Notes under the pieces: generated by a model
Databases searched by the model: none
The model's input: the letters and a program-made list of their open reading frames with translations, nothing else
Told to the model about the DNA's origin: nothing
Translations under genes and position numbers: made by a program
Virus record (IMG/VR): IMGVR_UViG_3300043548_000722
Coordinates: 32,001-96,000 of that record
DNA from: a virus
DNA: 64,000 nucleotides
Strand: one strand, 5' to 3'
Shown: in pieces, positions 1 to 26,425 of the stretch
How positions within the stretch are numbered: the stretch's first letter is position 1
How the letters are laid out: every line of letters starts with the position of its first letter

Positions 1-2031
1 GATTGCTCTTCCTGGGTCAGCCTGTGGCGTTCCGTTAGGTGCCGGATTTTGCTGCGCGTTGAGAGGATCGATCTGCGAGCCGCGGTCATTCATTAGTTGG
101 ATAACCAGCTGATACAACGGAGGATTCTCCATCTGCATTTGCTGAAGAGCTTGATACATGGCTTCTTCGCCCTGTTCTTTTTTTAGCATGCGTAAGAACG
201 ATGCTGCGCGCTGCGCGATGTACCGCAGGTCCACACCCCCTGACCCAGGCTGGATTGGTGACTGGGCAGACGCCATAGCGGCGGGCATTCCATCCTGATT
301 CGGAGTGGCCGCATTCTCATCGTAGGCGGTAGCTCCTTCTGGAAGCCCAGGAGTTTGCTGAGCCTGATCTCCAGCGGGTCCCTGCTGAGCGGCCGGGTCT
401 TGCGGCATTGCGCCCTGCGCTTGCTGCTGTGCGGCAGCCTGCTGCGCTGCCTGCTGCATCTCCATTTGTACCTGGCCCTGTGCGCGCATGGTCAGGGCCT
501 GCGCCTTGGCTTGGTAGCGTGAGGTCCGAAGCTGGGCTTCTCCCTGAATATCTGCCGAAGCGACCTGCATGCGGCGATTGGACTGAAGCTGCTTCTTGAT
601 CTCTTCGCGCATGCGCTCCGACTCGAGATCGAAATCCTCCCCAAGTTCTTCCATGAGGCGATGATCGCTGATCTTCTGAGCCTGGTTGAGTTGGAGGTAG
701 AACATGCTTCTTTGCAAGTCATCAGCCATACGGAACTTGTCGAATCTCGACGAGACCTTGGGCCACTCCATGAAGGAGGCAATCTTACCCATGATGAAGA
801 CGTTGATCAGCTCGTGGCGCTGCTTGTTGTACCCCAGGAACATGTTTTCCAGTGCCCGGAGCGAGGTACTCGATCCAGACCACTGGAGTCCTCCGAAGAT
901 GAACTCCACAGGAATGCCGGCGCCAGCAAGCATCTGCTCAGCCAGAAGACGCATCTCTTGGTACATCAACAGGGCGCGACCTTGTCCACCGATCTGCTGG
1001 AATCCGATGTTGACAGGAAGGACCGGGATGTAGTTGTGATCCCGCTTCCACATGTTGATTTCTTCATCTACCCGACGTTTCCAGTTCGTCAGGTTGTAGG
1101 CCCCGTAGGGCCCCTCGTTGCCTCCAGTGTTCTGGCCCGGGAAGATCATCCGCATGGGAACGATGTTCTCCATGAGGATTGCCTCGTTGGCCTTCTTCAT
1201 GACCTGGAGGTAGAACGCATCCTTCAGAAGCGGGAAGATCAGGGGCGTGCCCCAGCCTTGATCCTTCTGGGCGATCGTCGGTCGCTTCAGATGGTAGAGG
1301 TTGTCCTCCGAAAAGAGGAGTGACTTGTTCGCGCGGGCGGCTTCAAGGAACTCGAGGGGAAGCGACTCAATCTCGTCGCAGTCTCCAAGTTTGATGTCGT
1401 TGATCACGCTCTTGGGTAGGCGGAAGTAGTACTTGGTCTTTCCAGTAATCTCGTTGTGCTTGATGTCGATGTTCTCTGGATTCCACCGAACCAGGCGAAT
1501 CTGGCGGAAGCTCCGAACGTAGACATCGTGCTGCTTCGCGTAGCCCTCGTGGCCACAGTCGCACTTGTGAAGGTAGAAACGAGAGTCACGCCACTTGTAG
1601 CGGAATCTGTTGGTCTTGGCACGGTAGCGTGCGCCGCAGGAAGCACAGATGAGGTACTTCTCGAACGGCAGGAACACCGAGACAAAGGCGTTTCCGTATA
1701 CGAAGTAGTCGAGCCCGACCTCGACCTGAAATGAGCGCAGCTTGAGGTGATCCTCTACCTTCTTATAAAGCTTCATCACCTCCGGGTCGTCTGTCTCAAA
1801 AATAAGAGGGGTGACCGGGTACTCTGCCATTTTGGAGCACGCGGCGTTGATCACCGGATTTGTCAAGAAGTAATACCGGCACCACTTGTGTAGTTCGTGC
1901 TGATTAGATGGAAGGAACTGCTGAGAGATGTCAAAGAACGGCGACGGATAGCGAATGCCGAATCCTCGGCCACCCTCAGTGGTGACTGGCCTCGGATTAA
2001 AACGGTTTACTTCGCTGGTAATGACGTTCAT
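1..2031 (-). CDS. Portal protein (partial, 3' end beyond window), with Cys-rich insertion and Q/A-rich C-terminal region
   Basis: Not in ORF track because it has no stop in the window. Hand translation from the ATG at 2031 (ATGA overlap with upstream stop): MNVITSEVNRFNPRP...RYPSPFFDISQQFLP...WCRYYFLTNPVINAACSKMAEYPVT...GLDYFVYGNAFVS...LYHLKRP...GWGTPLI...LAGAGIPVEFIFGG. These segments fit portal patterns; about 677 codons open. Confidence 0.8.
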   Translation of the reverse strand, partial: MNVITSEVNRFNPRPVTTEGGRGFGIRYPSPFFDISQQFLPSNQHELHKWCRYYFLTNPVINAACSKMAEYPVTPLIFETDDPEVMKLYKKVEDHLKLRSFQVEVGLDYFVYGNAFVSVFLPFEKYLICASCGARYRAKTNRFRYKWRDSRFYLHKCDCGHEGYAKQHDVYVRSFRQIRLVRWNPENIDIKHNEITGKTKYYFRLPKSVINDIKLGDCDEIESLPLEFLEAARANKSLLFSEDNLYHLKRPTIAQKDQGWGTPLIFPLLKDAFYLQVMKKANEAILMENIVPMRMIFPGQNTGGNEGPYGAYNLTNWKRRVDEEINMWKRDHNYIPVLPVNIGFQQIGGQGRALLMYQEMRLLAEQMLAGAGIPVEFIFGGLQWSGSSTSLRALENMFLGYNKQRHELINVFIMGKIASFMEWPKVSSRFDKFRMADDLQRSMFYLQLNQAQKISDHRLMEELGEDFDLESERMREEIKKQLQSNRRMQVASADIQGEAQLRTSRYQAKAQALTMRAQGQVQMEMQQAAQQAAAQQQAQGAMPQDPAAQQGPAGDQAQQTPGLPEGATAYDENAATPNQDGMPAAMASAQSPIQPGSGGVDLRYIAQRAASFLRMLKKEQGEEAMYQALQQMQMENPPLYQLVIQLMNDRGSQIDPLNAQQNPAPNGTPQADPGRAI

Positions 2032-3050
2032 GACTGCTCATCCTTTCCCTGACCGAATGCTCTGTCTAAGACAGAGCCAGCAGATCCTGTAACGTCAGAA
2101 GCCAGTCCTTCAAATGGAACTGCTGCCATCCCTACCGCTGACGGAACGATCAGTTTCTGGCTTAGGAAAGACCTCTTTCCGCCTGTGATCAAGTTAGATT
2201 TACCTAATCCTAAGTTTCTACCGGTAAATAGATGAGCCGTTCCAGCGGTGATACCCGCAGCAGTTAGGCCACGAGCGAGCCTCTCCGCAACACCACGCTC
2301 ATTGCCCTCATCGTCGGTGGAGGGGAGCGCGTTGGCGACACCAGTGACTCCCACCTGGCCGACCTCAATCGCCCGCTCGCCTGGCATATACGTGGAGATG
2401 CCCCCGCGTAATTTTACGTTCTGTGCGCCAGCTTCTTGGCCGATCTGCCGATACGCGTCAAGCAACTCTTCCTCTGGAATCATTTCTCCCGCGCGCTGGC
2501 GATCCATGATGCTTGTAATTTTAGATCTTAAGTTGTCGCTAGCGTTAAACTTCGGATCTTTGTTAAAAAATCCAGTCAGCCCACCAGAGGACCTTTCGCC
2601 TGCGCTTGCCCATCCTCCCTTGCGGGCTGCTCCAGCCGTATCTGATAACGCGTCAAACTGTGTTGCAGTGCCATCAAGCGCGTTTTCAAAGGCCTCATTC
2701 ATAAGCTCCACGCGTTTAGACCTAGCAGCCCCCTGAGTAAACTCGTCGGCATTATTTCCTGCGAAGCTGGCTCCGCTTGACAGCCCGCGCTTAATACTTT
2801 GAACGGGCTTAGTCGCTACTTCCTTAGCTGCCGTAAAGAGCTTACCGGCCCCGCTAGGATTACGAAGTAGGGCCGCACCAGCTACCAAACCTCCGATTGC
2901 GGGGAGAACCACGCCCGGACCCGTGAAGTTTCTTTGTATGATATTTTTTTTCTTTGGCTCCTGTGCCTCTGGCGCAGAGGGGGTAGCCGAAGAAATCCCA
3001 GCTTGTTTTTGCAACTCAAGTGAGAACGAGTAAAGAACGCTTTTATTCAT
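2028..3050 (-). CDS. Hypothetical protein with FxxELxKxA leader and Gly/Ala-rich hydrophobic segments (putative virion cargo)
   Basis: 340 aa; starts MNKSVLYSFSLELQKQAG; hydrophobic stretch VVLPAIGGLVAGAALL; coupled to the portal gene. Confidence 0.75.
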   Translation of the reverse strand: MNKSVLYSFSLELQKQAGISSATPSAPEAQEPKKKNIIQRNFTGPGVVLPAIGGLVAGAALLRNPSGAGKLFTAAKEVATKPVQSIKRGLSSGASFAGNNADEFTQGAARSKRVELMNEAFENALDGTATQFDALSDTAGAARKGGWASAGERSSGGLTGFFNKDPKFNASDNLRSKITSIMDRQRAGEMIPEEELLDAYRQIGQEAGAQNVKLRGGISTYMPGERAIEVGQVGVTGVANALPSTDDEGNERGVAERLARGLTAAGITAGTAHLFTGRNLGLGKSNLITGGKRSFLSQKLIVPSAVGMAAVPFEGLASDVTGSAGSVLDRAFGQGKDEQS

Positions 3051-3053
3051 AGT

Positions 3054-3842
3054 TCACCTCAGCTCGGCAGTGTAGCGGAAGAGGGCATCGACGGCCTCAT
3101 ATAGTTTTACCGCGCATATATCATCAGCAGTTTCTAGAAGGGTCGGGTTCTTTTTACTTAGAAGAGCGACCAGGGTCCTCTGCACGCCCGCAGTTGGAAG
3201 CTTAGTGACAATCTTTACCTTAGACCCATTAAACTTCTTTCGAAGCCCCTCGTCTGGCTCCATCTTCAATAGACTGTCCGTGTTGTATCGGTCTGTGCAG
3301 TAGCTACAGAGGCCATCCTCTTTTGGCTCCTCTTCATTTCCGCACTCTCCGCAGACCTGTGTGGTCTTCGAGATCAGAGGATTTAAAAACTCCAGTGGCT
3401 CCGGTACGTACCAGATTCCCGACTCATGGAGCTGCGCGGCCATATACCGCCGGACCTCCTCCGCAAATAATGGAATGTCTCCGAGGGTCCCTAAGTCCAA
3501 TCGGATTCTGTTAGCCGCATCTACGGCCAACATAAGGTCAGAGACTGACTGGTTATCAATATGTGAAACAGATGGGATCTTACCCACAAGGGCCTGAGAG
3601 ACTGTGTGGAACGTTTCCCAGCTCTTCCAAAACATGTCGTGGTTGGCAACCGAAATGGCCGCCAGTAGCTTCATGAGCACGACACGGGGGATGTTGAGTT
3701 TCAGGCGATCCTCAACAGACCTTTTAACGACAAAAGGTTCCCACTCCAACGCTCTTGGGCCGAAGAGAGAAAGGTAGCCACGAAGCAAGGAGAGAGGATG
3801 ACTCTTCTCGTCCTTGAATACCTGGATATCAGTACCCACCAT
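3054..3842 (-). CDS. Hypothetical protein with C4 zinc-ribbon motif
   Basis: 262 aa ORF in operon; CGEC...CSYC motif. Confidence 0.75.
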   Translation of the reverse strand: MVGTDIQVFKDEKSHPLSLLRGYLSLFGPRALEWEPFVVKRSVEDRLKLNIPRVVLMKLLAAISVANHDMFWKSWETFHTVSQALVGKIPSVSHIDNQSVSDLMLAVDAANRIRLDLGTLGDIPLFAEEVRRYMAAQLHESGIWYVPEPLEFLNPLISKTTQVCGECGNEEEPKEDGLCSYCTDRYNTDSLLKMEPDEGLRKKFNGSKVKIVTKLPTAGVQRTLVALLSKKNPTLLETADDICAVKLYEAVDALFRYTAELR

Positions 3843-4923
3843 TGTTTGTATCTCTGGACTGCGAGGCCATACGGGACAGGAGGATCTGCTGCTCTAGCGG
3901 CATCTTCTTGAATGTGCCAATCGGATCGCTCTTGAACCGCGACACTACGTCCTCCTCAAAAACATCTTGCAGCGCAGTGTGTGCGGCGGTGCTACCGGCA
4001 TATCGCATCAGCATGGAAGCCGTGACGTAGTCGCCTCCGTGAACCCAGGAATACTCAGCCTGCTTTTCCGTGCCAAAAACTGTGAGTACGGGGTCAGGGA
4101 TGTTCTGGCCATAACGATTTAGGAGTCCAGCACGCTCGTCCATCAGGAAGAGCGCCTCGACGACATCGTCTGGATCGAGCGCCGCCGCCATCTTGGCCAG
4201 TCGAAGGTAGTCTTCCTGGTACGCGGGGTTGGCTGTGTACTCTGCGCGACGAGAAGCAACCTTCTCAAAGCGCGGGTTGAGTGTGGTCCCGCTGTAACGG
4301 AAGATGTGATCCGGGATCTGCGCACCGATGTCGCTTGCGACCTTCACAATGTCGACTGCGGCCTCGTGCCGATCGTACGGATCGAGGTCATCCCATGCCT
4401 CAACGAGGGCCGAGATCGCATCAAAGGCAGACGCAGTCTTCTCATGCCTACCCAGCGGCACAGACATGCCCTTTCCAAGAGGACGCATGATCTGCGACGG
4501 CTCGTATGAGGCGGTTTTCGCGTACTGCGTAGCGGCAGACGCCGCCTTGATCAGTACGCGGCGTCCGTCCCCGGGAAGATCGTCTCCCTCATTGGCAAGG
4601 ATGGTCAGTGCCGGGTGAGAGGCGAGTCCGAGTGCGTCGGCCGCATCGAGAAGATTGGCCGCGGCCACCTTGACCGCCCCGCTGGGCAGGCCGTGCTCTG
4701 CGTTGAGCAAGTACCACTGCGAGAGAAAGGTGTTGCCCGCGTCATGGCACGCAAACTTGCGATGCTCCTTGCCTTGGCTGTCCATGATGATGAGCGCGAA
4801 GTCACGGTCATACAGATCGTCACGCTCCTTCCAGGATGCCGTCTTGAGGAACTCGACGCCGCTCTTGGGTCCAGTCGTGCGAAACAGCTCTCCGAGGTCG
4901 TCATGATGGTCGACTACAGCCAT
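3829..4923 (-). CDS. Hypothetical head-associated protein rich in KxA motifs (scaffold/core candidate)
   Basis: 364 aa; AGGAG RBS upstream; first gene of the portal operon; 10 KxA motifs. Confidence 0.8.
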   Translation of the reverse strand: MAVVDHHDDLGELFRTTGPKSGVEFLKTASWKERDDLYDRDFALIIMDSQGKEHRKFACHDAGNTFLSQWYLLNAEHGLPSGAVKVAAANLLDAADALGLASHPALTILANEGDDLPGDGRRVLIKAASAATQYAKTASYEPSQIMRPLGKGMSVPLGRHEKTASAFDAISALVEAWDDLDPYDRHEAAVDIVKVASDIGAQIPDHIFRYSGTTLNPRFEKVASRRAEYTANPAYQEDYLRLAKMAAALDPDDVVEALFLMDERAGLLNRYGQNIPDPVLTVFGTEKQAEYSWVHGGDYVTASMLMRYAGSTAAHTALQDVFEEDVVSRFKSDPIGTFKKMPLEQQILLSRMASQSRDTNNGGY

Positions 4924-5003
4924 GTTTTAGCTCCTGAAGGAGAAAATGTAGATCCCAGTATACGCAGTCATAAGCCTTGTAGCACCCAACCAGAGGTTAG
5001 TGC
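4924..5003. promoter_or_regulatory. Divergent promoter region between head operon and replication operon
   Basis: 80-nt intergenic gap between divergent starts, with an RBS for each gene; contains AGTCATAA at 4966-4973. Confidence 0.55.
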
Positions 5004-5411
5004 ATGGGAACTTTCTCAAGTCGATTCGCAGATGACGAGGATGCCTCATCAGGAAGGCCAGAGTGCTACGGAGATCCCGACTATTACGATATCACGAACG
5101 ACGTGTGTAGGCAGTGTCGGTTCAAAGGCACCTGCCGACTCAAAGTCGGTGCGCTCGATCGAGAACAACGGAGAGTTCATTCACCAGCACCGCACACAGC
5201 GACTGCCGTCCCTACAACCGCAGCGACTGCATATAGGAATCGTCGCCCTGAGCCAGTGTACGCCCCTCCAACCGAGGAGTCCACGTTCTTCTCGGCCCTG
5301 GCCTGGAATGTAAGTCTGGATGCGGCAACTGCCAGCTTCGAGACTATCGCATCTGCTTTTGCGCGGATTCCGCGCGAAGGTTATCCTTCCTTACGGAAAT
5401 CTAGAAAATGA
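5004..5411 (+). CDS. Hypothetical Cys-motif protein
   Basis: 135 aa; GAGG RBS; C-x13-C-x2-C-x5-C motif; ATGA overlap with helicase. Confidence 0.7.
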   Translation: MGTFSSRFADDEDASSGRPECYGDPDYYDITNDVCRQCRFKGTCRLKVGALDREQRRVHSPAPHTATAVPTTAATAYRNRRPEPVYAPPTEESTFFSALAWNVSLDAATASFETIASAFARIPREGYPSLRKSRK

Positions 5412-6781
5412 TCAAGCTGCCGATCTTGAAAGAGGCCACGGCTTACCGAGGTCGGCATCTTTTCTTGCCAAAGAGCCATGTCAAGCGTTCCATGGTTGAA
5501 GGGCTCCTGACCTTCGGGGATGACCCTTCCCGTGGAACGCGCGACCTGGTCGTGGATCATCCTCTTCACGTTCAGGTTCCGCGCTACACGCTGACAGATG
5601 CCCAGATTGAGAAGCTCGGGTGTGAGTTCATAGACTATCGCCCAGAGTTCCCAAAGATTGAGTTGACGCCAAAGCCTTCCTTTCAGCTTCGAGACAACCA
5701 AGAGGAGGCTTGGGAGGCACTCAAGGTGGCAGATCGCGGAGTCCTGAATCTTGCATGTGGCAAAGGAAAGACCGTGCTTGGATGGGCCAAGGCCGCGCAT
5801 GAGGGAGTGCCGACACTCATTGTTAGTCCACAGACGGCGCACCTCGACAACTGGATTGCAGAGCTACACCAGTTCTTCGACTATAAGAAAAAGATTGGAT
5901 GGATCCAAGGTAAGAAGTTCGAGTACGAGGAAGACATCTGCGTCTCGACCGTCCAGACATTGGCCGCGCGCGCAGAGGAAGGATTGCTGCCGCCTGACTT
6001 CTACCGTCGATTCGGGCTCGTCATCTATGACGAGTGCCACATCATGGCCGCAGATTTCTTCTCAAAGGCCAGCAGTGTTGGCTCTGGCACAAGGATCGGA
6101 CTGACCGCAACTCCGACGAGGACGGACCGCTGCGAGGGAGTGTTCTTCTCGCACCTCGGCCCGGTGTTCTACTCGGACATCACTCAAGACCTAACTCCTA
6201 CGATTTTTGTCGTAGATGCCGGAGCCTTCTTCAGTGAAGCCGAGCGGTCTCGGATGCTGGACCGAAATGGGCAGCTAAACATTGGGCGGCTTCACAAGAC
6301 CCTCGCAGAGAATGCCGATCGGAATCGGGTCATCCAGCAAGTTATCGACGAGTGCCTCAAAAGAGGAAGGACCGTGTACGCGCTCTCACACGGGCCAGAG
6401 CACATCGAGACGTTCCAGCAGAGCAATCCCGGAAGCACCGTCATTCACGGAGGGACGAAGTCAACCGAGAGGCTGGATCTGTTGAACGGTAGCAATCTGG
6501 TCTTTGCCTCGATTGGCGTCGGGGCGGCGGCCTACAACCGGAAGGACCTGGACACGTTGATTCTGATGACGCCCTTTGCCGCGCGCTCGCATTCGGCGAT
6601 TACGTTCCAGCAGAGCGTGGGGCGGATCCTCCGAGCCCTTCCGGGTAAGAAGGAACCGTGGGTATTTCTGATCATGGACAAGTCGGTGGACGCGTGTAAG
6701 GGAATGATCCACTCTTTGATCCGTGAAAGTCAACGTAAGAAATACCGTGTCATAACGAAATGGAACTGGACCTCGATATAG
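5408..6781 (+). CDS. Superfamily 2 DExH helicase (UvsW/XPB-like)
   Basis: Q motif LRDNQ, Walker A ACGKGKT, DECH, GLTAT, QQSVGRILR. Confidence 0.93.
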   Translation: MIKLPILKEATAYRGRHLFLPKSHVKRSMVEGLLTFGDDPSRGTRDLVVDHPLHVQVPRYTLTDAQIEKLGCEFIDYRPEFPKIELTPKPSFQLRDNQEEAWEALKVADRGVLNLACGKGKTVLGWAKAAHEGVPTLIVSPQTAHLDNWIAELHQFFDYKKKIGWIQGKKFEYEEDICVSTVQTLAARAEEGLLPPDFYRRFGLVIYDECHIMAADFFSKASSVGSGTRIGLTATPTRTDRCEGVFFSHLGPVFYSDITQDLTPTIFVVDAGAFFSEAERSRMLDRNGQLNIGRLHKTLAENADRNRVIQQVIDECLKRGRTVYALSHGPEHIETFQQSNPGSTVIHGGTKSTERLDLLNGSNLVFASIGVGAAAYNRKDLDTLILMTPFAARSHSAITFQQSVGRILRALPGKKEPWVFLIMDKSVDACKGMIHSLIRESQRKKYRVITKWNWTSI

Positions 6782-8504: not shown

Positions 8505-9913
8505 TGGCACATCCGGAATTGGAGCTTATTAGCAACATCCTGTCCACAGGAGACTTCAATACACCAAAGAAGAAAGGATTGACTCCAGAGTGGTTCACGC
8601 TGGATGTCGCTCGTGATGCGTACCACTGGCTGTGGAACGAGTACCACGACCCGCAGCAGCGCGGAGAAGTACCGACCGTTGAGAGGTTCCTGCGGAAGTT
8701 TCCGGGCTTCGATTACAGCCCGAGTCGGAACTCGCTAAATGCGCTAATCACAGACGTACGGACCCAGAAGGTACAGTCTGACCTGCAAAGCATTCTCAAT
8801 GAGATGCAGGACGAGATCACGGACGGATCTGATCCGTCTCTGATCTTAGACACCTTCCTCCCGAAGATTCGGAGGATGAATGTGGAGGCCCATGAAGAAG
8901 ATGGCATCCTGCTGTCCGGTTCATTGGCCCTGCTACGTCAACAGTACAACACCCACGCCGAGTCGGGAGGGGTTGTCGGCATTCCGTACCCGTGGGAGGT
9001 TCTGAACCAAAAGACGGGTGGTATGCGAGACGAGGAGTTCATCGTCATTTACGGCCGCCCTGGCAACATGAAAACGTGGGTAGCATGCGCCATCGCGGCG
9101 AAGGCGTATCTGGAGAATCATCGCGTGATGATCTTCTCCAAGGAGATCTCACGAGAGGCGATGCTGACGCGCGTCTGTTCTGTGCTGGGTAACGTGGACT
9201 ATGATCGTCTCCGTCGAGGCATCCTGTCGGAAGAAGATGCCGACGAGTTCTTCGAGCTCATGGATGAGCTTGCGGAGTCTGAGGAAGAAGACAGCACTGG
9301 CTCTCATCACCGAGCCCTGATGTTCATGTCCGACAAGGGCAAGAAGGCAGGCTCAACAGTAGAAGACTTGATTGCCGCCGCAGAGAGGTTCCAGCCGGAC
9401 CTCATTGTGGTGGACGGCTTCTACTTGATGAAGGATGGAAGATCTGGGCAGAGAACGGCAGACTGGAAACAGATCAGCCACATCAGCCAAGACCTAAAAG
9501 CGATGGCTCAATTTGTCGGCTGCCCTGTGATTGGAACAACGCAGGCCAACCGCGCGAACGCAAAGGAACCCTCGGGAGACCTGGACGACCTGTCCTTCGC
9601 AGATGGCATTGGCCAAGACGCAGACATCGCCTTCCGCGTGTTTCGCGGTCCCAATCCATCTGGAAGAGGAGCTTCGCTTCTCTTCATCTTCTCGAAAAGC
9701 AGAGAGACAGTCATCCCTCCGTTCATCATCAATGCAAACCCTGGCTCAGACTTCAGCGTGCAGCAGTCTCATGCGAACGTAAAAGCGTTCCTTGACATGA
9801 AGAAGCAGATGGAGATGAGTGAGGGGGCGGACGACGACGACGGAAGCGGTGGCGCCCCCAAACAAGAGGCAAAGAAGAAACCAAAGAAGAGAGATGACCC
9901 ATTCCGAGCTTAG
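8504..9913 (+). CDS. dnaB: Replicative DnaB-like (SF4) helicase
   Basis: GIPYPWEVLNQKTGG, Walker A GRPGNMKT, FSKE, IVVDGFYLM, TQANR, IGQDAD. Confidence 0.92.
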   Translation: MAHPELELISNILSTGDFNTPKKKGLTPEWFTLDVARDAYHWLWNEYHDPQQRGEVPTVERFLRKFPGFDYSPSRNSLNALITDVRTQKVQSDLQSILNEMQDEITDGSDPSLILDTFLPKIRRMNVEAHEEDGILLSGSLALLRQQYNTHAESGGVVGIPYPWEVLNQKTGGMRDEEFIVIYGRPGNMKTWVACAIAAKAYLENHRVMIFSKEISREAMLTRVCSVLGNVDYDRLRRGILSEEDADEFFELMDELAESEEEDSTGSHHRALMFMSDKGKKAGSTVEDLIAAAERFQPDLIVVDGFYLMKDGRSGQRTADWKQISHISQDLKAMAQFVGCPVIGTTQANRANAKEPSGDLDDLSFADGIGQDADIAFRVFRGPNPSGRGASLLFIFSKSRETVIPPFIINANPGSDFSVQQSHANVKAFLDMKKQMEMSEGADDDDGSGGAPKQEAKKKPKKRDDPFRA

Positions 9914-10856
9914 GTTCCTGCCGGAGTTTGAAAAGTATGTCCCCGGACTCCGCGTGGGGTCCGGGGACAACTACATGGGGTTCTGCCCCATTCACGGAGA
10001 GGTGCCAGGGCAGAGTAAGCCCAGTCTTTCGGTCAATGCTGCGACGGGGCTGTGGCACTGCTTTGCGGGATGTGGCGGTGGCAACATCCGCACGTTTCTC
10101 AGGCTGCTGGGCGAGTCAAGCGCGACGATTGACCGAGTAGCGAAAAAATCATCGACAAAGAAAGCAAGACCGGCTAAGAGGGAAGCACCTCCGGATAGCC
10201 TGCCAGAGAGGCTTTTGGGGGTCTTCGACTGGTGCCCGACGAAGCTGGTGTCGGAGGGCTTCAGTGAAAAAGTGCTCTTTGAAAATGATGTAGGGTACGA
10301 CAAGAAGTTGTCGAGAGTCACGTTTCCCGTGCGAGACAAAGACGGGAAGCTGGTGGGCATCGTTGGAAAGCAGCCCACCAGTGAATTCGGAAAATACAAA
10401 GTCTATACTACCGAGCTTCTGGAGTATGGACTTCAGGTTCCCACATTCTCAAAAGGGGACCATGTTTGGCGGCTCAACAAGGTCGCGACGCAGCTCAAGA
10501 CGGAACGGAAACCCGTTTACATCGTCGAAGGCTTCAAGGCGGCGCTGTGGTTCTGCCAGGCAGGCATCAACAATGTGGTCGCGCTGATGGGCAGCCACAT
10601 GACAGATGCACAGAAGAAGCTCATTGAGAGTCTAACTTCCCAAGTGATTTTGTGTCTGGATAACGACGACGCAGGTCATGCAGGAAGTCTCAAAATCAGT
10701 CAAAAACTTCAAGCGGCACGAATTAGTGTGGTTGTGCTGCCAGAAGGCATCCACCAACCGGATGACCTGACGGCAGCAGAGCTGCGTGAACTGTGCCGCA
10801 CTCCCGTCAGTATCAGTGAGGCAAGAAGACAATGGCTCCTAAGACCATCCCCATGA
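9894..10856 (+). CDS. dnaG: DNA primase (CHC2 zinc finger + TOPRIM)
   Basis: CPIH...PSLSV...WHCFAGC, IVEGFK, VALMG, CLDNDDAG. Start likely ATG 9894 (track 9819). Confidence 0.92.
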   Translation: MTHSELRFLPEFEKYVPGLRVGSGDNYMGFCPIHGEVPGQSKPSLSVNAATGLWHCFAGCGGGNIRTFLRLLGESSATIDRVAKKSSTKKARPAKREAPPDSLPERLLGVFDWCPTKLVSEGFSEKVLFENDVGYDKKLSRVTFPVRDKDGKLVGIVGKQPTSEFGKYKVYTTELLEYGLQVPTFSKGDHVWRLNKVATQLKTERKPVYIVEGFKAALWFCQAGINNVVALMGSHMTDAQKKLIESLTSQVILCLDNDDAGHAGSLKISQKLQAARISVVVLPEGIHQPDDLTAAELRELCRTPVSISEARRQWLLRPSP

Positions 10857-11950
10857 GCGCCGGGCGCACTCGGCGCGACAGCAAAGGCAATCCCCGTGGC
10901 AAGCGTGCCGGCTGGTCGGCCAAGTGGTCCGACGAATTGAAGATCGGGAAGGACGAGTCCGCGTGGATTCAGCTGACTCCCGGTAAGTACAGCAGTGAGG
11001 AGGGCGTGCAGCCCTACTTCTCCGCCCCCATGTTCAAGCTCCAGTTCAACAACAAGTTCGGCACGACTTCCTGGGGCTACTTCCGGGGCAACGGCGGGCC
11101 GGACTGCACGCTTCAGAAGCTTGCGGACTCGAACAACCCGAATGTGCAGGAGCCCAAGTACGGCGAGCCCAACCGCTTCTACGTGGGCATCATTCACTAC
11201 GCCCTCTACCACAAGACCCCGATTGAGAAGAATGGGCAGGTCATTACCTACTCGGAAGGCAAGCTGAAGGGTCAGCCCGTCTACCAGTGGAATGAGGTCA
11301 AGTCGGTGCGTGAGAAGAAGCAGCTTCTCACCGCTGGAGACGTGGACTCCCTGGGGTTCTATCGCAAGAAGTTCCTGGAGCTTCCGGCCACCCAGTTCAA
11401 GGTGGTGCAGGAGATTGCCCGCAAGGCGCGTTCGATCTGCAAGTGCGGCGGCACACTGTTCCCCTCGGTGTTCGTCTGCCCGGCTTGCGAGAACGTCCTG
11501 CTCGACACGAATGAGTCGGACATGACGGACTCGGAGATCATGAACTACGCCGACCAGGACATTCGCTGCCGCCACTGTGGCGCGGTGGAGTTCCCGCGCG
11601 CGGAGTACGACTGTGACTCCTGCGCGGATCCTCGGCCCCACGAGTACCATGAGGTCGTGGCCAAGCTCAAGAAGGTCACCGGACCCACGGGCTACCCGAC
11701 GATTGCGCTGGACTCCGTGGTTCCGGTCACCGAGTTCACCATGGAGAACAAGCAGTGCCCCGTGACGGTCAATGGAGAGGGAGCCCTCACCTACGACGAG
11801 TCCTTGGATAATCTGATGAAGAATCAGTTTGACTTCGAGGAGTACACCAAGCCTCGGACAAACGCAGAGTACGCGGAGATGCTGGGCTTGCGTGAGGGCG
11901 ACATCGGGTTCGCCTCTTCCGCCAAGCGGTACAACAACTTCCGCGGCTAA
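10832..11950 (+). CDS. Probable single-stranded DNA-binding protein with multiple Cys pairs
   Basis: Located between primase and polymerase; strong codon bias; own terminator; CKC, CPAC, CRHC, CDSC motifs. Function inferred from position. Confidence 0.5.
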   Translation: MAPKTIPMSAGRTRRDSKGNPRGKRAGWSAKWSDELKIGKDESAWIQLTPGKYSSEEGVQPYFSAPMFKLQFNNKFGTTSWGYFRGNGGPDCTLQKLADSNNPNVQEPKYGEPNRFYVGIIHYALYHKTPIEKNGQVITYSEGKLKGQPVYQWNEVKSVREKKQLLTAGDVDSLGFYRKKFLELPATQFKVVQEIARKARSICKCGGTLFPSVFVCPACENVLLDTNESDMTDSEIMNYADQDIRCRHCGAVEFPRAEYDCDSCADPRPHEYHEVVAKLKKVTGPTGYPTIALDSVVPVTEFTMENKQCPVTVNGEGALTYDESLDNLMKNQFDFEEYTKPRTNAEYAEMLGLREGDIGFASSAKRYNNFRG

Positions 11951-22600: not shown

Positions 22601-25600
22601 TCCCAGTGATACCCGATGTGCAGATCCGAGTTTGACCCCCACATTGGGTAGATCATTCGGCCCGCAGCAATGACATCCTCTGAATACACCCCTCCCAGAG
22701 CGTGCCCAAAGTCACTGTCGGGAGGATTGCCGTGTACCCAAATCGAACCGACGGTTTCGATGGCTGAGCCCAAGCCCGTGATTGCGGGCTCCGTCCCATC
22801 CGACTTGCGAATGAAGACGGCCGCAGCCGAGGGCGTGTGTGACCCGCCCGCAGTGTCTTCACCTTTTGCGACCACCAACGCAGGGTCTGTGCCGCGCTGA
22901 ATGACTCCAGCAGCAAACGACCTACGAACCCCGGTCGTGTAGTCGGCCCCATCAGTGTCCGGAAGTCTGAAGGCCGAGCTGTTGCCGAACCCCGATGCCT
23001 CTACAAAGAGGCCAACGGCGGTAGAGTCGACTGTCTCGGAAGAAGCGACGGCGACATGGATGCCGTCCGCAGGTGAGAACGCGTTTACGTCCACGGCGTA
23101 GCCACGGCTGACATCGTCGGCCCCGCCGTCCAAGGCAGAAAACTCCGAGTCATTGGCCGTGACAAGGATGCCTGCGCCGGTGCCTGCCCACCCCACGCGA
23201 ATGCCGATGACGGTGTCGTTTGCGCTTGCAGCCGCCGGATCCTGCTCCTGGAACACGCTCAGGGCTGCGCGGCCTGCCGCCGCGCCTCCGAACATGGGCA
23301 CTCCGACGCCCATGCGCAGATTCAGAAGCATGAACTGATGTGAGCCGGTGAAGGTCGGAGACGTACCGTCGAGATTGCGAATCGTAAGCTGGTTCGGACG
23401 GGTTTCGTAGGCTTCGTAAAGACCCGCGTACAGACCCGTGAGCACACGCACGTAGGTCTTTGCGCCGTGCGAGTTGGCCGACCGGGCTGACGTGGAGTGG
23501 TGCGTGATTGGGTACAGAGTTCGCAGATTGTCTGGATTTACGGAGACTGATGCCGAGTTCACGACTGACGTGATCACGCCACCTGACGCAAACGACCCGG
23601 TCAGGATGTCAAGATTCGAAACCGTGGTCCCATCAAGGAGCGCGGATTTCGTCACATGCTCGAAATGAGCAAAGGCCAGGTCGCTACCGACGCTGCTGCC
23701 ATTGACCTTCGTATGATGGAAACCTCCTGCCCTTACGCTCTCGGTGACGCTGCTAATTGCTGCGCGATAGTCCGTGACCAGGTCGTCAAAGATCTCCCAT
23801 GACGACACGTTGTCCGCACCGCCGCCAAGCGGCAGCACGGTGCCAATCTGATGCAGCGGAGGGACAATCTGCACAGTCCGCCCATCAATCCAGCGCGTGA
23901 TGCGCCAATCGGCGTAGTTCGTGCCGCTGATGACGAAGTTGATCGCGCGACCAACGTCCTCAAGGGTGAATGCGTCGTAGGTGCCGGAGGCATCGTATCC
24001 AGAGGCACGGAGGAGGTTCCCCTCCAGAACTTCCGCTGCGTCCACGGATGTGCGATTGGAGGCGGCCGTCGTTGCGGCGGGCGTTGCGAAAAGAGTGACT
24101 GGGCGATCAGTAACTTCTGCAAAGAAGCCGCCACCCTTGTCCTGGCCCTGTCCCTGGTAGACACCGCCGAAGTTGAGATTGCGGTGCAGGTTTCGTAGGA
24201 CCCAGCCATCGACCTCTTCTGACGAGTTGATGGCCGGGACCAGCAAGAAGTCTCGAGGCACGCGACCAAATGCGTTCTGCATGCCGAGGATGATGCGGAT
24301 ACCGCCTGCGGGAACACGCGGGATGTGCGGCTCGAACCACAGGTACAGCGAGGTTTCGAACAGTCCATTCGAGTGGACAGTGAGCGTCTCTCCCGACTGG
24401 GCGTTGAGAAGATGCAGAGACTCATCTGTTTCGTGCCGAACGACGATCTCTGTCTCCGAAACGACAGTGTCTACAACGTATCTCCCCGCGTTCGAGATTG
24501 GGGTTACAACGACCGGACCCGTTAGCTCAACGATGTCCCCTTCACGCACTCCGTTCGTGACAAACGTCGCGCCGGAGCAAATGATCGTAGCGCCATCGAT
24601 AATCTCTGTGACGCCCACAGAGCTTTGCTTCAGAGACTCTCCGCCCAAAGCATTACGGTAGAACGGGTAGTCATCTGTGCTGAGCGGTAGGTTGGCCGAC
24701 CCGTCTTCGTTGAAGGTACTCGCGCCTCCAACAATCCCGCCAGAGGGCAGGTAAGCAACGGTGCCGATGCCCACTACCTTGTCAAGAGATAGCAACTCGT
24801 TCCACTCGGAGTCGAGGACCGCAAAGTACTGAGAGATCTGCTGAAGCGAGGCGTCGGCAGGAAGATCAACGAAAATTGCGGTCTCGAGCACTGCATCGAG
24901 ATCATCGAGGTATCCGGTGGCCAGGTCGATTGAGGTCACCGCCCCCGTGAGCGCGTCATACTTCAGACGAGGGCTGTCCTCTGGGATCTCCAGCACGACA
25001 GGTACGGCCACTTCGCGGACAAGCTGGACCTGGTGGCTGTCGAGGTTCTTGGCTAGGCTGTGCAGAGCGCGATTGACGCTCTCGCTCGTCCGGTCCTCTC
25101 CACGCGCGACGAAGCTAGACCGCGGACGGTTGCCCTGCGTCAGAGCTCGCGGACTGGAAGATGCAAGGTCCCCCGCAGTCACCCGTGCAGACGGATGCGG
25201 GTTTACGTGTAGGCCAACCAGCGGAGCAAGGTCTGTGAAGCCCGCGGCAGTCGGAAGAACCTCGATAAAGGCATTGGTCCCTTCCGCAGCAACGTAGCCG
25301 GTGTTCTTGGCAACAACCTTGAGCACACCTTCGTAGGCATAGGCAGTCAGCGGGGCCGGAATGGATACCGCAGCGGCTGCGGTGTTGATCCCATCTACGA
25401 TCTGCGCCAGGGTTAGCGCAGAGACAGAGGAGAACGAAACGACCAGGCTCGCCAAGGATTCTGTCGCAAAAGTGATCGCAAAGCTGCCCGGGCTACTCGC
25501 TGCCAAGATGGCATCGATGTCGTCGAAGCCTCCGGTGGCATTGATGGGCTTGGCGCCAAAGATAACGGGCTGCGCGAGGACAGCTTTGTCCGTCTTGCTT

Positions 25601-25629
25601 GCAAGAAAGGGACGGCGTACAAAACTCAT
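19600..25629 (-). CDS. Large tail fibre/receptor-binding-like structural protein (2009 aa)
   Basis: Last gene of the tail operon; beta-rich Ser/Thr/Gly/Ala composition; follows a tail-collar-like gene. Confidence 0.65.
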   Translation of the reverse strand: MSFVRRPFLASKTDKAVLAQPVIFGAKPINATGGFDDIDAILAASSPGSFAITFATESLASLVVSFSSVSALTLAQIVDGINTAAAAVSIPAPLTAYAYEGVLKVVAKNTGYVAAEGTNAFIEVLPTAAGFTDLAPLVGLHVNPHPSARVTAGDLASSSPRALTQGNRPRSSFVARGEDRTSESVNRALHSLAKNLDSHQVQLVREVAVPVVLEIPEDSPRLKYDALTGAVTSIDLATGYLDDLDAVLETAIFVDLPADASLQQISQYFAVLDSEWNELLSLDKVVGIGTVAYLPSGGIVGGASTFNEDGSANLPLSTDDYPFYRNALGGESLKQSSVGVTEIIDGATIICSGATFVTNGVREGDIVELTGPVVVTPISNAGRYVVDTVVSETEIVVRHETDESLHLLNAQSGETLTVHSNGLFETSLYLWFEPHIPRVPAGGIRIILGMQNAFGRVPRDFLLVPAINSSEEVDGWVLRNLHRNLNFGGVYQGQGQDKGGGFFAEVTDRPVTLFATPAATTAASNRTSVDAAEVLEGNLLRASGYDASGTYDAFTLEDVGRAINFVISGTNYADWRITRWIDGRTVQIVPPLHQIGTVLPLGGGADNVSSWEIFDDLVTDYRAAISSVTESVRAGGFHHTKVNGSSVGSDLAFAHFEHVTKSALLDGTTVSNLDILTGSFASGGVITSVVNSASVSVNPDNLRTLYPITHHSTSARSANSHGAKTYVRVLTGLYAGLYEAYETRPNQLTIRNLDGTSPTFTGSHQFMLLNLRMGVGVPMFGGAAAGRAALSVFQEQDPAAASANDTVIGIRVGWAGTGAGILVTANDSEFSALDGGADDVSRGYAVDVNAFSPADGIHVAVASSETVDSTAVGLFVEASGFGNSSAFRLPDTDGADYTTGVRRSFAAGVIQRGTDPALVVAKGEDTAGGSHTPSAAAVFIRKSDGTEPAITGLGSAIETVGSIWVHGNPPDSDFGHALGGVYSEDVIAAGRMIYPMWGSNSDLHIGYHWDPSSSSYWAAPTTLGRPGIIRPANETDSDPIGDFTASDYTRFNLAHAGVLAVSSLGVGALPGPASSWVGCIVEVISTGERYAILAVESDGTDIFFALGGDVAITPAAGADFRLHGLRWHRSYIDIADWMQVGTYQALKTLDQLPLLSSDSNSLDERADSTVDRSGNSKTLSFVQWALTTDGAGIGAAEDYDPISAPLLFESSAWSGSAESPHHTTPWATYSNEPRPPFYADETVDTTASDFALTDIRKVGLGGALSYQPTHGGTLIVTRAATATVLRQRGRRYIWKDHLRLKIRLRAASGGTAAPVTVGLAMVTASGTTVASDSVSVVSFVSSGAVEIRSYEATLAVNGVVDRASSALQESRLDEELFLQITVPADPTTSTYMAFQEISVQHDTDPLKVSGPVLTSGHVAAHGFRFANAVKGYQTLGPADTKLLGGQDYGVNMGWQRDYDLSTSTSFTPPTSTYSMGMQELRGGPGLLRTVNSQTILGVKTTQQILSDTSGQPSPANAWTYGNNLRTLMLEPMPDASSEILKFSWGTAYEDADAAWVVLDSAHTADPLDTAVSEAFMEFLATCEKLASAAIRQYEDTEPRVVSRNEEFYVALVNAAYALRGECASIRETLSAGQGDLIESLINSIPEDRWIRPSVDMYRLFDIGVNSATITLYTAAFDPLWYALHGHLTVNSSWSVNDVDIPRDSFIPPGFVGFTMPVDAPHGSVLSEVSISLSMRPSSSTCWGIYKRAPEIFWKIGSGATFEEVSDVSQWEPNAGVLVELWRFNTLDTAFDQDDFARWNEHEPEFGFGEIIWSGEVDLPAVGDNADATNEVEEAWEYSAPFIGSSPLSVFARKEYFVKKRLHLPDEAISAAALRVDRRHFAYALVIRFIGGPRRTPNALGTGEVLPFNLSDAVGLTSVSPDSSFDFPVIVQPQYQPTTTTVSTLAEAVAFSFGKFGKAIAVGTSDPGPFVDGDTNWAHRAISTMYPPNVKFRGARIGWLTDRAGDKGWG

Positions 25630-26243
25630 AGGAAGCGGACCTCCCAGATCACGCGCAGAGTAAACGAAGTGGTCTTGGTTACGGGCTCAAATGTCTTGTA
25701 GGCCATTGGTGCCCGATCCGCGACGGCCATACCAGTCGGAGTCGCAGTGCGACTCCAGTTGTTGTCCGGATCTCCGTCCGTGAACAGCCCGGCCTCCGTG
25801 AGAATCACGTTGTCCGGCAGGCTGATCTCTGTCTGCCCATATTCCCGGATGAACCGCACCGCCGTCCTGGAGGACGTGGAGGACAACACGGGGAAGGTAG
25901 CAGGGACTCTGACTCTCGCCAGGAACTCTCCTGGAACGTACGGGACGCCGCTGACAAGCTGCGAGATGTTTGCGACCTCGGGCTGGGATCCTACGCCGAG
26001 GCCGATGAACGCAATGCGGTCATTCCGAAAAAATTCGTCGCCTGAAAAGTTCTTAAGAGAGATTAGTTCGGCCAAGTACTCACGGCCCGTGAGCGTCCAG
26101 ATGTTCGAGCCTTCGACATGCTGACGGCACTTGCCGTTTTCGAAGCTGTCGATCGTGACGAACCCTTCGATGGCCGGAGCTGAGGCATGGTCCTTGACCA
26201 CTTTACGGCCAAAGAACGGCAGTAGGCGCGCGATGTTCAGCAT
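25626..26243 (-). CDS. Tail fibre attachment/collar protein (P2 gpH N-terminal-like)
   Basis: TLTGREYLAELI...IAFIGLGVG...LTEAGLF...YKTFEPVTKT...WEVRF pattern. Confidence 0.65.
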   Translation of the reverse strand: MLNIARLLPFFGRKVVKDHASAPAIEGFVTIDSFENGKCRQHVEGSNIWTLTGREYLAELISLKNFSGDEFFRNDRIAFIGLGVGSQPEVANISQLVSGVPYVPGEFLARVRVPATFPVLSSTSSRTAVRFIREYGQTEISLPDNVILTEAGLFTDGDPDNNWSRTATPTGMAVADRAPMAYKTFEPVTKTTSFTLRVIWEVRFL

Positions 26244-26425
26244 ACTTCGAGTCTCCGGATGATCTCTTTGGCCTCGTCCACAGTAACACCGAAGTTGAAC
26301 GCAATCACTTCGGGGTTGAGAGGTTTGCCGTCCGCAGACTGAATACCTCCTCTACGCGCTCCCTTGGCGCCGCCCTCAATCTTAAGGGAGTCAACGACTC
26401 TTGGCTGTTCTTTGTTCCTGATCAT
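26237..26425 (-). CDS. Hypothetical protein
   Basis: 62 aa, overlapping both neighbours in the operon. Confidence 0.6.
   Translation of the reverse strand: MIRNKEQPRVVDSLKIEGGAKGARRGGIQSADGKPLNPEVIAFNFGVTVDEAKEIIRRLEVC

What the first reader, a model, noticed from the sequence alone, without database searches (positions are those of the whole stretch)
3829..4923. Portal-operon protein in which 10 of 17 lysines are in K-x-A
Counted by hand: KTAS, KFAC, KVAA, KAAS, KTAS, KTAS, KVAS, KVAS, KMAA, KQAE, out of 17 Lys. It is the first gene of the operon ending in the portal. Multiple protease sites are typical of scaffold/core proteins that are cut up during head maturation (established for T4 core proteins). 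Inference: this is a scaffold/inner-core protein and the best internal evidence that KxA is a maturation cleavage site.
Basis: partly seen in the sequence, partly recalled or inferred. Interest (0 to 1): 0.72.

Follow-up and report, generated by a model that had tools for sequence, protein, structure and literature searches.

The report
Phage head protein studded with cut-sites
The first gene of this uncultured large phage's portal operon encodes a protein of a very large unnamed family in which most lysines sit in a strict Lys-x-Ala(-Ser) signal, most likely the cutting site of the phage's own head-maturation protease, although no cutting has been measured.

Summary
The count is exact. The minus-strand ORF at 3829-4923 (364 aa) has 17 Lys, 10 of them in K-x-A and 6 in K-x-A-S (binomial p 1.3e-5; 0 of 200,000 shuffles reach 10). 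It is the most enriched of 110 ORFs in the 107-kb record.

The signal marks the whole family. There are 2,306 clusters at 50% identity. In 139 further representatives 37% of Lys are in K-x-A, 3.1 times expectation, while R-x-A, K-A and A-x-K are not enriched. Five sites are conserved, Arg never replaces the motif Lys, and the unalignable linker holds 20 times the expected K-x-A-S.

The protein has two homologous helical modules, a disordered linker and a motif-free C-terminal 75 residues. The same extended motif fills other head-region proteins, both here and around the protease-like gene of the cultured phage Arash. The co-operonic neighbours and the virion RNA polymerase seem to avoid it.

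Best reading (0.6): a multi-site substrate of an assemblin/T4 gp21-type prohead protease that cuts K-x-A|S. Its long acidic N-terminal part would be diced, as in the giant-phage propeptides of SPN3US. It is probably not the main scaffold.

No cleavage data exist. This scan has noted the same motif, and an ortholog of this protein, on other DNA.

The parts
3829..4923 (-). CDS of the 364-aa K-x-A-rich protein (P0001). The ten K-x-A(+1) sites are at nt 4834-4845, 4747-4758, 4660-4671, 4537-4548, 4507-4518, 4429-4440, 4333-4344, 4252-4263, 4183-4194 and 4054-4065.
   Evidence: ORF and counts; 99 homologs, then 2,306 clusters; no Pfam or PHROG family
4549..4923 (-). N-terminal helical module, residues 1-125. 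It holds the conserved N-terminus M-x-V-x-D-H-H-D-D-L and the motifs at K27, K56 and K85.
   Evidence: pLDDT mostly above 85; conservation; homologous to the start of the C-terminal part: hhalign probability 82%, E 1e-5
4432..4548 (-). Linker, residues 126-164. The model has pLDDT below 50 over residues 131-163. The linker is hypervariable and holds KAAS (126), KTAS (136) and KTAS (162).
   Evidence: 131-163 pLDDT below 50; 12-289 aa long in 93 homologs; K-x-A-S 101 observed against 5.1 expected; 91 of 93 have at least one K-x-A
4057..4431 (-). Second helical module, residues 165-289, with motifs at K194, K221, K244 and K287.
3829..4056 (-). Motif-free C-terminal domain, residues 290-364 plus the stop codon. 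It is a beta-hairpin followed by five short helices and a conserved disordered tail ending in N-x-G-G-Y.
   Evidence: 93 homologs: 395 Lys, 9 in K-x-A, 27.5 expected; 139 further representatives: 704 Lys, 38 in K-x-A, 60.4 expected
4924..5003 (.). Divergent intergenic region between this gene and the 135-aa/helicase genes on the + strand. It holds the GGAG ribosome-binding site of this gene.
   Evidence: this arrangement is conserved in 23 related loci
3054..3842 (-). Second gene of the block (262 aa). It has 18 Lys and no K-x-A.
   Evidence: (homologs: 9 K-x-A observed against 21.2 expected)
2028..3050 (-). Third gene (340 aa). Its only K-x-A is KQA at residues 15-17, at the end of a conserved short N-terminal leader.
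   Evidence: leader F-S-E-E-L-Q-K-x-[AS] conserved in relatives; 10 observed against 22.1 expected
1..2031 (-). Portal protein gene, cut by the window edge (full length 678 aa).
   Evidence: 31% identity to Arash gp204, annotated portal protein, E 2e-82; phage G portal gp14 E 2e-11

Best explanation
The gene encodes a precursor head-assembly protein of a very large, unnamed phage family. It is built from two homologous acidic helical modules joined by a disordered, fast-evolving linker, followed by a small C-terminal domain. About every 29 residues over the first 289 residues it carries the lineage's K-x-A(-S) signal. I infer that this signal is the recognition site of the phage's own prohead protease, an assemblin/T4 gp21-type enzyme encoded about 25 kb away. 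By analogy with herpesvirus assemblin (V/L/I-x-A|S) and the giant-phage proteases (A-x-E|S), the likely register is P3 = Lys, P1 = Ala, with the cut before Ser. On this reading the protein enters the prohead with the portal-operon products. The linker sites are cut first, and the N-terminal 289 residues are diced into pieces of 10-43 aa that leave or stay as peptides. The motif-free last 75 residues are spared. Shown: the motif statistics, its conservation, its Lys specificity, the domain layout, the synteny, and sharing of the motif with proteins around the protease-like gene. Inferred: that the motif is cut, where it is cut, and that the protein is in the prohead.
For: 1) Enrichment in this protein: 10 of 17 Lys, p 1.3e-5, the top of 110 ORFs. 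2) A family-wide and specific signal. Of 139 cluster representatives no more than 50% identical to each other, 132 are individually enriched at p below 0.01. In them 1,675 of 4,532 Lys are in K-x-A against 534 expected, and K-x-A-S is 383 against 32. The controls are flat: R-x-A 1.09x, K-A 0.66x, K-x-x-A 1.2x, A-x-K 1.0x. 3) Behaviour of a short linear motif. In the unalignable linker (12-289 aa) K-x-A-S is 101 against 5.1 expected, and sites turn over between lineages. 4) Strict Lys. At the motif columns Arg occurs 0-1 times in 93 sequences, while other basic columns swap K and R freely. 5) The same extended context appears in the other head-region ORFs of this genome but not in its replication or tail ORFs: L/F at -2, E/V at -1, T/V as x, Ser at +1 (4.6-5.2x) and Ala at +2. 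Genome-wide, K-x-A-S is 35 against 3.1 expected in the head set and 10 against 6.7 elsewhere. 6) A protease candidate exists. The 631-aa protein matches phrog_18299, head maturation protease, at E 1.5e-4. The top fold hits of its model are T4 gp21 (5jbl) and varicella-zoster and cytomegalovirus proteases. Its catalytic region is itself flanked by KTAS. 7) Avoidance where survival would be needed: the C-terminal 75 aa (ratios 0.33 and 0.63 of expectation), the 262- and 340-aa neighbours (0.42 and 0.45), and K-x-A-S in the virion RNA polymerase (2 against 11.3). 8) The capsid protein has KTA at residues 23-25, and the Arash capsid protein has KEA at the matching place. 9) In the cultured relative Arash the genes around the protease homolog are also K-x-A rich: gp220 10 of 21 Lys, gp223 8 of 16, gp225 7 of 13. 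10) There is precedent: SPN3US gp245 cuts after A-x-E with Ser preferred at P1', and long N-terminal propeptides carry several motifs and are cut into pieces (PMC10052503). 11) The protein is acidic (net -16), as expelled core and scaffold parts usually are.
Against: There are no proteomic, N-terminal sequencing or biochemical data for this protein or for the motif. The published Arash table gives no peptide-level data, and Arash has no detectable homolog of this protein. Seven of the ten sites lie inside confidently folded helices or strands, where a protease could reach them only after unfolding. The conserved in-domain sites could therefore be structural. Part of the repetition comes from an internal duplication, since the K27 site aligns with the K162 site. 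The protease assignment is weak: model pLDDT 65, Foldseek E 0.09, VIA Z 4.4. The depletion statistics rest on related sequences and a few conserved Lys columns, so their real significance is lower than the Poisson values. The register (K|x or A|S) is unknown.
Confidence: 0.6

Rival explanations
1. K-x-A(-S) is a docking or targeting signal that is bound but not cut. A scaffold, the portal or the protease's substrate groove would use it to recruit proteins into the prohead, and this protein would be a multivalent adaptor.
For: The motif behaves as a selected short linear motif. Multivalency (about 10 copies) suits an adaptor. The gene is tied to the portal gene in all 23 related loci.
Against: A harmless binding motif gives no reason for under-representation in the C-terminal domain, the two neighbours and the RNA polymerase. 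The motif sits at module boundaries and after short N-terminal leaders, as cleaved targeting sequences do. It flanks the protease domain itself.
Confidence: 0.14
2. The pattern is structural and historical. It would be a helix-end or packing motif multiplied by internal duplication of a helical module, with no dedicated reader.
For: The two modules are homologous, and two of the sites align with each other. Five sites are conserved inside predicted helices or strands.
Against: The sites occupy helix starts, helix ends, a strand, loops and disordered sequence. The motif is most over-represented as K-x-A-S in a linker with no structure or alignment. Unrelated head-region proteins share the same extended context. 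K is never exchanged for R.
Confidence: 0.1
3. The protein is the phage's principal scaffolding protein.
For: It is acidic, largely helical, multi-site, and encoded with the portal.
Against: It is predicted as two compact modules with high confidence rather than an extended coiled coil. It lies 25-30 kb from the protease and capsid genes. A 166-aa coiled-coil protein with three K-x-A-S lies two genes upstream of the capsid gene, and a 326-aa repeat protein with 11 of 24 Lys in K-x-A follows the protease gene. Arash and the Vibrio phages have the portal and protease but no detectable homolog of this protein.
Confidence: 0.1
4. The motif marks lysines for covalent chemistry, such as cross-linking or acyl or other modification, rather than for proteolysis.
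For: The absolute preference for Lys over Arg points to a need for the epsilon-amino group or a very specific pocket.
Against: No modifying enzyme was seen next to these genes. The +1 Ser/+2 Ala preference and the P3-x-P1 layout match the known protease codes of this enzyme clan. The motif marks domain boundaries and leaders.
Confidence: 0.05

Closest known systems
Giant Salmonella phage SPN3US prohead protease gp245 and its substrates with long N-terminal propeptides (gp53, gp54, portal gp81); the same system occurs in phiKZ (gp175) and 201phi2-1
   Same: A three-residue code read as P3-x-P1 with Ser preferred at P1'. Propeptides of 111-254 residues carry several copies of the motif and are cut into smaller pieces, while a C-terminal mature part stays in the head. 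Many head proteins lack the motif (PMC10052503). The layout here is parallel: about 289 residues with ten motifs, then a motif-free 75-residue end.
   Different: The code there is A-x-E, cutting after Glu. Here it is K-x-A, with strict Lys and probably a cut after Ala. There is no sequence or fold similarity between this protein and any SPN3US substrate. Cleavage is measured there and only inferred here.
Phage T4 prohead protease gp21 with core proteins gp22, gp67, gp68 and the internal proteins (established knowledge; PDB 5jbl)
   Same: Core proteins are cut at many (L/I)-x-E sites and mostly leave the head as small peptides. Short N-terminal targeting leaders are clipped. gp21 is the top Foldseek hit of the candidate protease here.
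   Different: The motif differs. T4 core genes sit beside the protease and capsid genes, whereas this gene heads the portal operon far from them. gp22 is an extended coiled coil, whereas this protein is predicted compact.
Herpesvirus assemblin (maturational protease; release and maturation sites (V/L/I)-x-A|S; established knowledge)
   Same: P1 Ala and P1' Ser are the same as the most frequent form of the motif here (K-x-A-S). Herpesvirus proteases are among the best fold hits of the candidate protease: varicella-zoster 1vzv at Z 4.4 with 115 residues aligned, plus cytomegalovirus and pseudorabies proteases.
   Different: P3 is hydrophobic there and strictly Lys here. Assemblin cuts only two or three sites, in its own precursor and the scaffold, not about ten in one substrate.
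Pfam DUF6582 (function unknown)
   Same: There are two weak leads that the repeated module resembles it. One family member scores 17.8 bits at the start of its second module. One Atlas neighbour cluster carries it in 19% of members, at score 0.85.
   Different: The score is below the Pfam cut-off of 27.3 bits. This protein itself gives no hit. The family has no known function, so it explains nothing.

Membership tests
Multi-site substrates of assemblin/gp21-type prohead proteases (T4, phiKZ, SPN3US type) | The same genome encodes a prohead protease of the assemblin/gp21 fold | tested here: inconclusive
   The 631-aa protein (record 9744-11639, minus strand) matches phrog_18299 at E 1.5e-4. Its model has pLDDT 65. 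The top hits are T4 gp21 at Foldseek E 0.09 and varicella-zoster protease at Z 4.4. These are concordant but individually weak. There is no Pfam or PDB sequence hit.
Multi-site substrates of assemblin/gp21-type prohead proteases (T4, phiKZ, SPN3US type) | A short motif over-represented in head-module proteins and not in other proteins of the phage | tested here: met
   K-x-A-S is 35 against 3.1 expected in the head set and 10 against 6.7 elsewhere. The extended context is shared only among head-region ORFs. The same holds around the protease homolog of Arash.
Multi-site substrates of assemblin/gp21-type prohead proteases (T4, phiKZ, SPN3US type) | Motif copies conserved or replaced in homologs, concentrated in linkers and pro-regions, and absent from the retained part | tested here: met
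Multi-site substrates of assemblin/gp21-type prohead proteases (T4, phiKZ, SPN3US type) | Cleavage at the motif shown by N-termini or semi-specific peptides, comparing prohead with mature head | not testable with these tools
   No peptide-level data are held. The Arash supplement is an annotation table only, and Arash lacks a detectable homolog.
Multi-site substrates of assemblin/gp21-type prohead proteases (T4, phiKZ, SPN3US type) | The protein is present in proheads | not testable with these tools
   There is only genomic association: the gene is the first of a conserved block with the portal and the virion RNA polymerase in 23 loci.
Phage scaffolding proteins (P22 gp8, T4 gp22 type) | Extended, mostly coiled-coil or low-complexity helical architecture | tested here: not met
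   AlphaFold gives two compact modules with beta-hairpins, a mean pLDDT of 85.7 and 232 residues at 90 or above.
Phage scaffolding proteins (P22 gp8, T4 gp22 type) | Gene placed between or next to the protease and major capsid genes | tested here: not met
   This gene is at record 35829-36923. The protease is at 9744-11639 and the capsid gene at 4393-5523. Other K-x-A-rich coiled-coil or repeat genes fill that slot.
Phage scaffolding proteins (P22 gp8, T4 gp22 type) | Acidic net charge | tested here: met
   Net charge is -16.
Pfam DUF6582 | Score at or above the Pfam gathering threshold (27.3 bits) | tested here: not met
   There is no hit for this protein or 35 aligned homologs at E up to 1. 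One long relative scores 17.8 bits.

The most novel reading that the evidence does not exclude
The protein is not waste scaffold but a polyprotein-like precursor. Regular cutting (the first three predicted pieces are each exactly 29 residues) would yield a set of about ten small acidic peptides plus a 75-residue C-terminal domain. These would stay in the DNA-filled head and be delivered to the host with the genome and the virion RNA polymerase, as a peptide cargo with its own early function. In longer relatives the same frame would release glycine-zipper membrane-active segments from the linker.
Probability: 0.12. Interest if true: 0.78.

Novelty: new variant of a known kind. Interest (0 to 1): 0.55.

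Why it matters
If K-x-A|S is the cut rule of this protease lineage, it is a specificity I could not find described, combining the P1/P1' of herpesvirus assemblin with a strict Lys at P3. The processed head proteome of a very large group of uncultured 100-200-kb phages, and of the cultured Salmonella phage Arash, could then be predicted from sequence alone. That would cover which proteins are loaded, where they are trimmed, and which must survive. This protein family has at least 2,306 clusters at 50% identity and has no Pfam or PHROG entry or name. It would be the densest natural substrate of the protease, and so a ready-made reagent for measuring the protease's specificity.

Tried and rejected
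- **DNA-level motif:** rejected, because the codons vary synonymously.
- **Family assignment:** Pfam and PHROGs give nothing for this protein, 35 aligned homologs, ten distant homologs or ten long forms, apart from sub-threshold noise.
- **Fold:** Foldseek against the PDB gives nothing below E 0.7. VIA-wide gives only generic helical bundles at Z 5.7 or less. BFVD finds only two uncharacterised phage proteins. Small HTH-like hits to residues 298-364 (Aca11 at Z 5.6, AcrIIA15 N-terminal domain at Z 5.3) are too weak to use, and that domain is not basic.
- **Cultured relatives:** tblastn of this protein and two distant members against 50,697 phage records found no match.
- **Syntenic genes:** the genes next to the helicase in Arash (gp199) and Vibrio phage D181 are unrelated to this protein, and the family profile finds nothing in either genome.
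- **Arash proteome:** the supplement holds only the annotation. The 'coverage' column cannot be sequence coverage, since it shows 100% with 2 peptides, so nothing can be said about cleavage.
- **Source names for eight family members:** all are 'hypothetical protein' or unnamed.
- **Literature:** a search for KTAS with phage found nothing relevant.
- **Self-association:** the two-copy complex prediction gave no verdict. This is neither support nor evidence against.
- Context was taken from IMG/VR loci instead. The first attempt with the wide alignment failed for lack of a conserved stretch.
- **Terminators:** a simple terminator scan shows no convincing minus-strand terminator between this gene and the portal.
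Full report
**Observation.** The finding's coordinates hold a minus-strand ORF of 364 aa with a GGAG ribosome-binding site.
- The hand count is exact. There are 17 Lys and ten K-x-A, at residues 27, 56, 85, 126, 136, 162, 194, 221, 244 and 287. Six of them are K-x-A-S.
- With 13.2% Ala the binomial p is 1.3e-5, and no shuffle out of 200,000 reaches ten.
- The window is bases 32001-96000 of a 107,650-bp IMG/VR record that CheckV rates 58% complete.
- Among 110 ORFs of that record this one is the most enriched.
- The motif codons vary synonymously, so the signal is in the protein.

**Surroundings.** The gene is the first after an 80-bp divergent region. Next come a 262-aa gene, a 340-aa gene and a 678-aa gene.
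- The 678-aa gene is the portal: 31% identity to the annotated portal of Salmonella phage Arash at E 2e-82, and it also matches the phage G portal.
- The string does not stop there. After two small ORFs comes a 2116-aa fused beta/beta' RNA polymerase, 30% identical to Arash gp206. Arash gp206 is the most abundant protein in Arash particle preparations (PMC10585845).
- The block helicase | this gene - 262 - 340 - portal - polymerase recurs in 23 IMG/VR loci, down to 28% identity. In every one the homolog of this gene has 8-18 K-x-A, while the two following genes have 0-2.

**The family.**
- A word-indexed search gave 99 unnamed metagenomic relatives on contigs up to 199 kb.
- A profile search of 1.84 billion representatives gave 2,306 clusters at E of 0.001 or better, and 793 at 1e-30 or better.
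- No Pfam or PHROG family matches, and no source gives a name.
- AlphaFold (pLDDT 85.7) predicts an N-terminal module (1-125), a disordered linker (131-163) and a C-terminal part (165-357). No solved structure matches beyond generic helical bundles.
- A profile comparison shows that the N-terminal module and the first half of the C-terminal part are homologous (probability 82%, E 1e-5). The K27 site aligns with the K162 site. The protein is therefore an internal duplication followed by a distinct small C-terminal domain.

**Is the motif selected?** Yes, by several independent measures.
- Every full-length relative is enriched.
- In 139 further representatives no more than 50% identical to each other, 1,675 of 4,532 Lys are in K-x-A against 534 expected, and K-x-A-S is 383 against 32.
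- The controls R-x-A, K-A, K-x-x-A, A-x-K and E-x-A are at 0.66-1.2 times expectation.
- The sites at 27, 56, 85, 244 and 287 are kept in 27-30 of 35 diverse sequences, with a variable middle residue. Non-motif lysines are poorly kept.
- At motif columns Arg occurs 0-1 times in 93 sequences, whereas other basic columns exchange K and R freely.
- The linker cannot be aligned and ranges from 12 to 289 residues. In it K-x-A-S occurs 101 times against 5.1 expected, and 91 of 93 sequences have at least one K-x-A.
- Lineage-specific sites appear at other columns.

**Is it the same signal as elsewhere in the phage?**
- The extended context is L/F at -2, E or V at -1, T or V in the middle, Ser at +1 (4.6-5.2 times background) and Ala at +2. 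It is shared by this family and by the other head-region ORFs of the record. It is absent from K-x-A occurrences in replication and tail ORFs.
- K-x-A-S is 35 against 3.1 expected in the head set and 10 against 6.7 elsewhere.
- The head set surrounds a 631-aa protein whose N-terminal 300 residues are highly conserved. This protein matches a PHROG of head maturation proteases at E 1.5e-4. Its catalytic region is flanked by KTAS.
- Its model is mediocre (pLDDT 65). The best hits of two independent structure searches are T4 gp21 and herpesvirus proteases, which is weak but concordant.
- The capsid gene (record 4393-5523, minus strand) was found through the Arash capsid protein. It has KTA at residues 23-25, where Arash has KEA.
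- In Arash the genes around the protease homolog gp222 are again K-x-A rich: gp220 10 of 21, gp223 8 of 16, gp225 7 of 13.

**Polarity and avoidance.**
- In 93 homologs the regions aligned to residues 1-111, 112-164 and 165-289 have 60%, 40% and 67% of their Lys in K-x-A. The last 75 residues have 2% (9 of 395, with 27.5 expected).
- The 139 further representatives repeat this, at 54%, 24%, 59% and 5%.
- The 262- and 340-like neighbours have 0.42 and 0.45 of the expected K-x-A.
- The RNA polymerase homologs have 2 K-x-A-S against 11.3 expected.
- Helicase, DnaB and two other non-head proteins are near 1.
- The 340-aa protein's single site ends a conserved 15-17-residue N-terminal leader.
- Under-representation fits a destructive reader better than a harmless binding site. 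These counts come from related sequences, though, so they are suggestive only.

**Mechanism.**
- The closest documented case is SPN3US. Its protease cuts after A-x-E with Ser preferred at P1'. N-terminal propeptides of 111-254 residues hold several motifs and are cut into pieces. Many head proteins lack the motif (PMC10052503).
- T4 gp21 with gp22, gp67 and gp68, and herpesvirus assemblin with its x-A|S sites, are the other comparators. These two rest on established knowledge.
- I therefore read this protein as a precursor with an acidic first 289 residues; the whole protein has net charge -16. That part would be cut at about ten K-x-A|S sites into pieces of 29, 29, 29, 41, 10, 26, 32, 27, 23 and 43 residues. 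The 75-residue end would be spared.
- It is probably not the main scaffold. It is predicted compact, it lies far from the capsid gene, and coiled-coil or repeat proteins rich in the motif occupy the usual scaffold position.

**Weak points.**
- No cut has been measured.
- Seven of the ten sites lie in confidently folded elements.
- The duplication explains part of the repetition.
- The protease assignment is weak.
- The register is unknown.
- Arash and the Vibrio phages lack a detectable homolog of this protein, so the one cultured system cannot test this protein directly.
- The published Arash table cannot inform on cleavage.
- A two-copy complex prediction gave no verdict.

**Relation to earlier notes of this scan.** After forming my reading I saw that the same motif, and an ortholog of this protein in another genome, had been noted before with the same interpretation.
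- The Arash lead came from such a note, and I re-tested it.

Noticed in passing
record G000:C1:9744-11639 (minus), outside the window; homologs P0165, P0182, P0195, P0197, P0200, P0201, P0214, P0215: Several homologs of the protease-like protein are about 1,010-1,050 aa long and carry intein/Hint/LAGLIDADG domains (PF14528, PF13403, PF14890) inside the conserved N-terminal domain. That is typical of essential enzymes.
   Followed up: no
window 2028-3050 (minus), 340-aa protein; relatives in L012, L014, L016, L017, L019: There is a conserved N-terminal leader of 15-17 residues (F-S-E-E-L-Q-K-x-[AS]-G) ending in the protein's only K-x-A. It is followed by low-complexity Gly/Ala-rich sequence and looks like a clipped head-targeting leader.
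   Followed up: partly
window 3054-3842 and 2028-3050 (minus); record 24866-31216 (minus): The two genes after the finding, and the virion RNA polymerase, are poorer in K-x-A or K-x-A-S than shuffling predicts (ratios 0.42, 0.45, and 2 against 11.3). This could be avoidance of the protease site by proteins that must stay whole.
   Followed up: partly
record G000:C1:24866-31216 (minus), just left of the window: A 2116-aa single-chain RNA polymerase carries both beta (GNKG) and beta' (NADFDGD) motifs and is 30% identical to Arash gp206. It lies in the same gene string as the portal. gp206 is the most abundant protein in Arash particle preparations.
   Followed up: partly
record G000:C1:4393-5523 (minus) and 6155-6655 (minus): The major capsid gene, found through Arash gp226, has KTA at residues 23-25, and Arash has KEA at the matching place. 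Two genes upstream of it, a 166-aa coiled-coil protein with three K-x-A-S is the likelier scaffold.
   Followed up: partly
P0039, P0067, P0080, P0226, P0307, P0360 (long family members): The linker, or an N-terminal extension, is expanded to 200-300 residues of Ala/Gln/Pro-rich sequence with glycine-zipper hydrophobic segments, often bordered by K-x-A.
   Followed up: partly
PMC10585845, Table 2: The column headed 'coverage' cannot be sequence coverage, since it shows 100% with two unique peptides. The particle preparation also contains ribonucleotide reductase, ligase and primase. 'Structural protein' labels in the Arash record should therefore be read with care.
   Followed up: no
window 62638-63879 (minus), 413-aa protein: There are two near-identical stretches after K-x-A-S sites (K-Q-A-S-A-T-A-T-K-V-D-P-Q-K and K-T-A-S-A-T-A-T-K-T-D-P-Q-K), which suggests a repeated module that starts right at the motif.
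   Followed up: no
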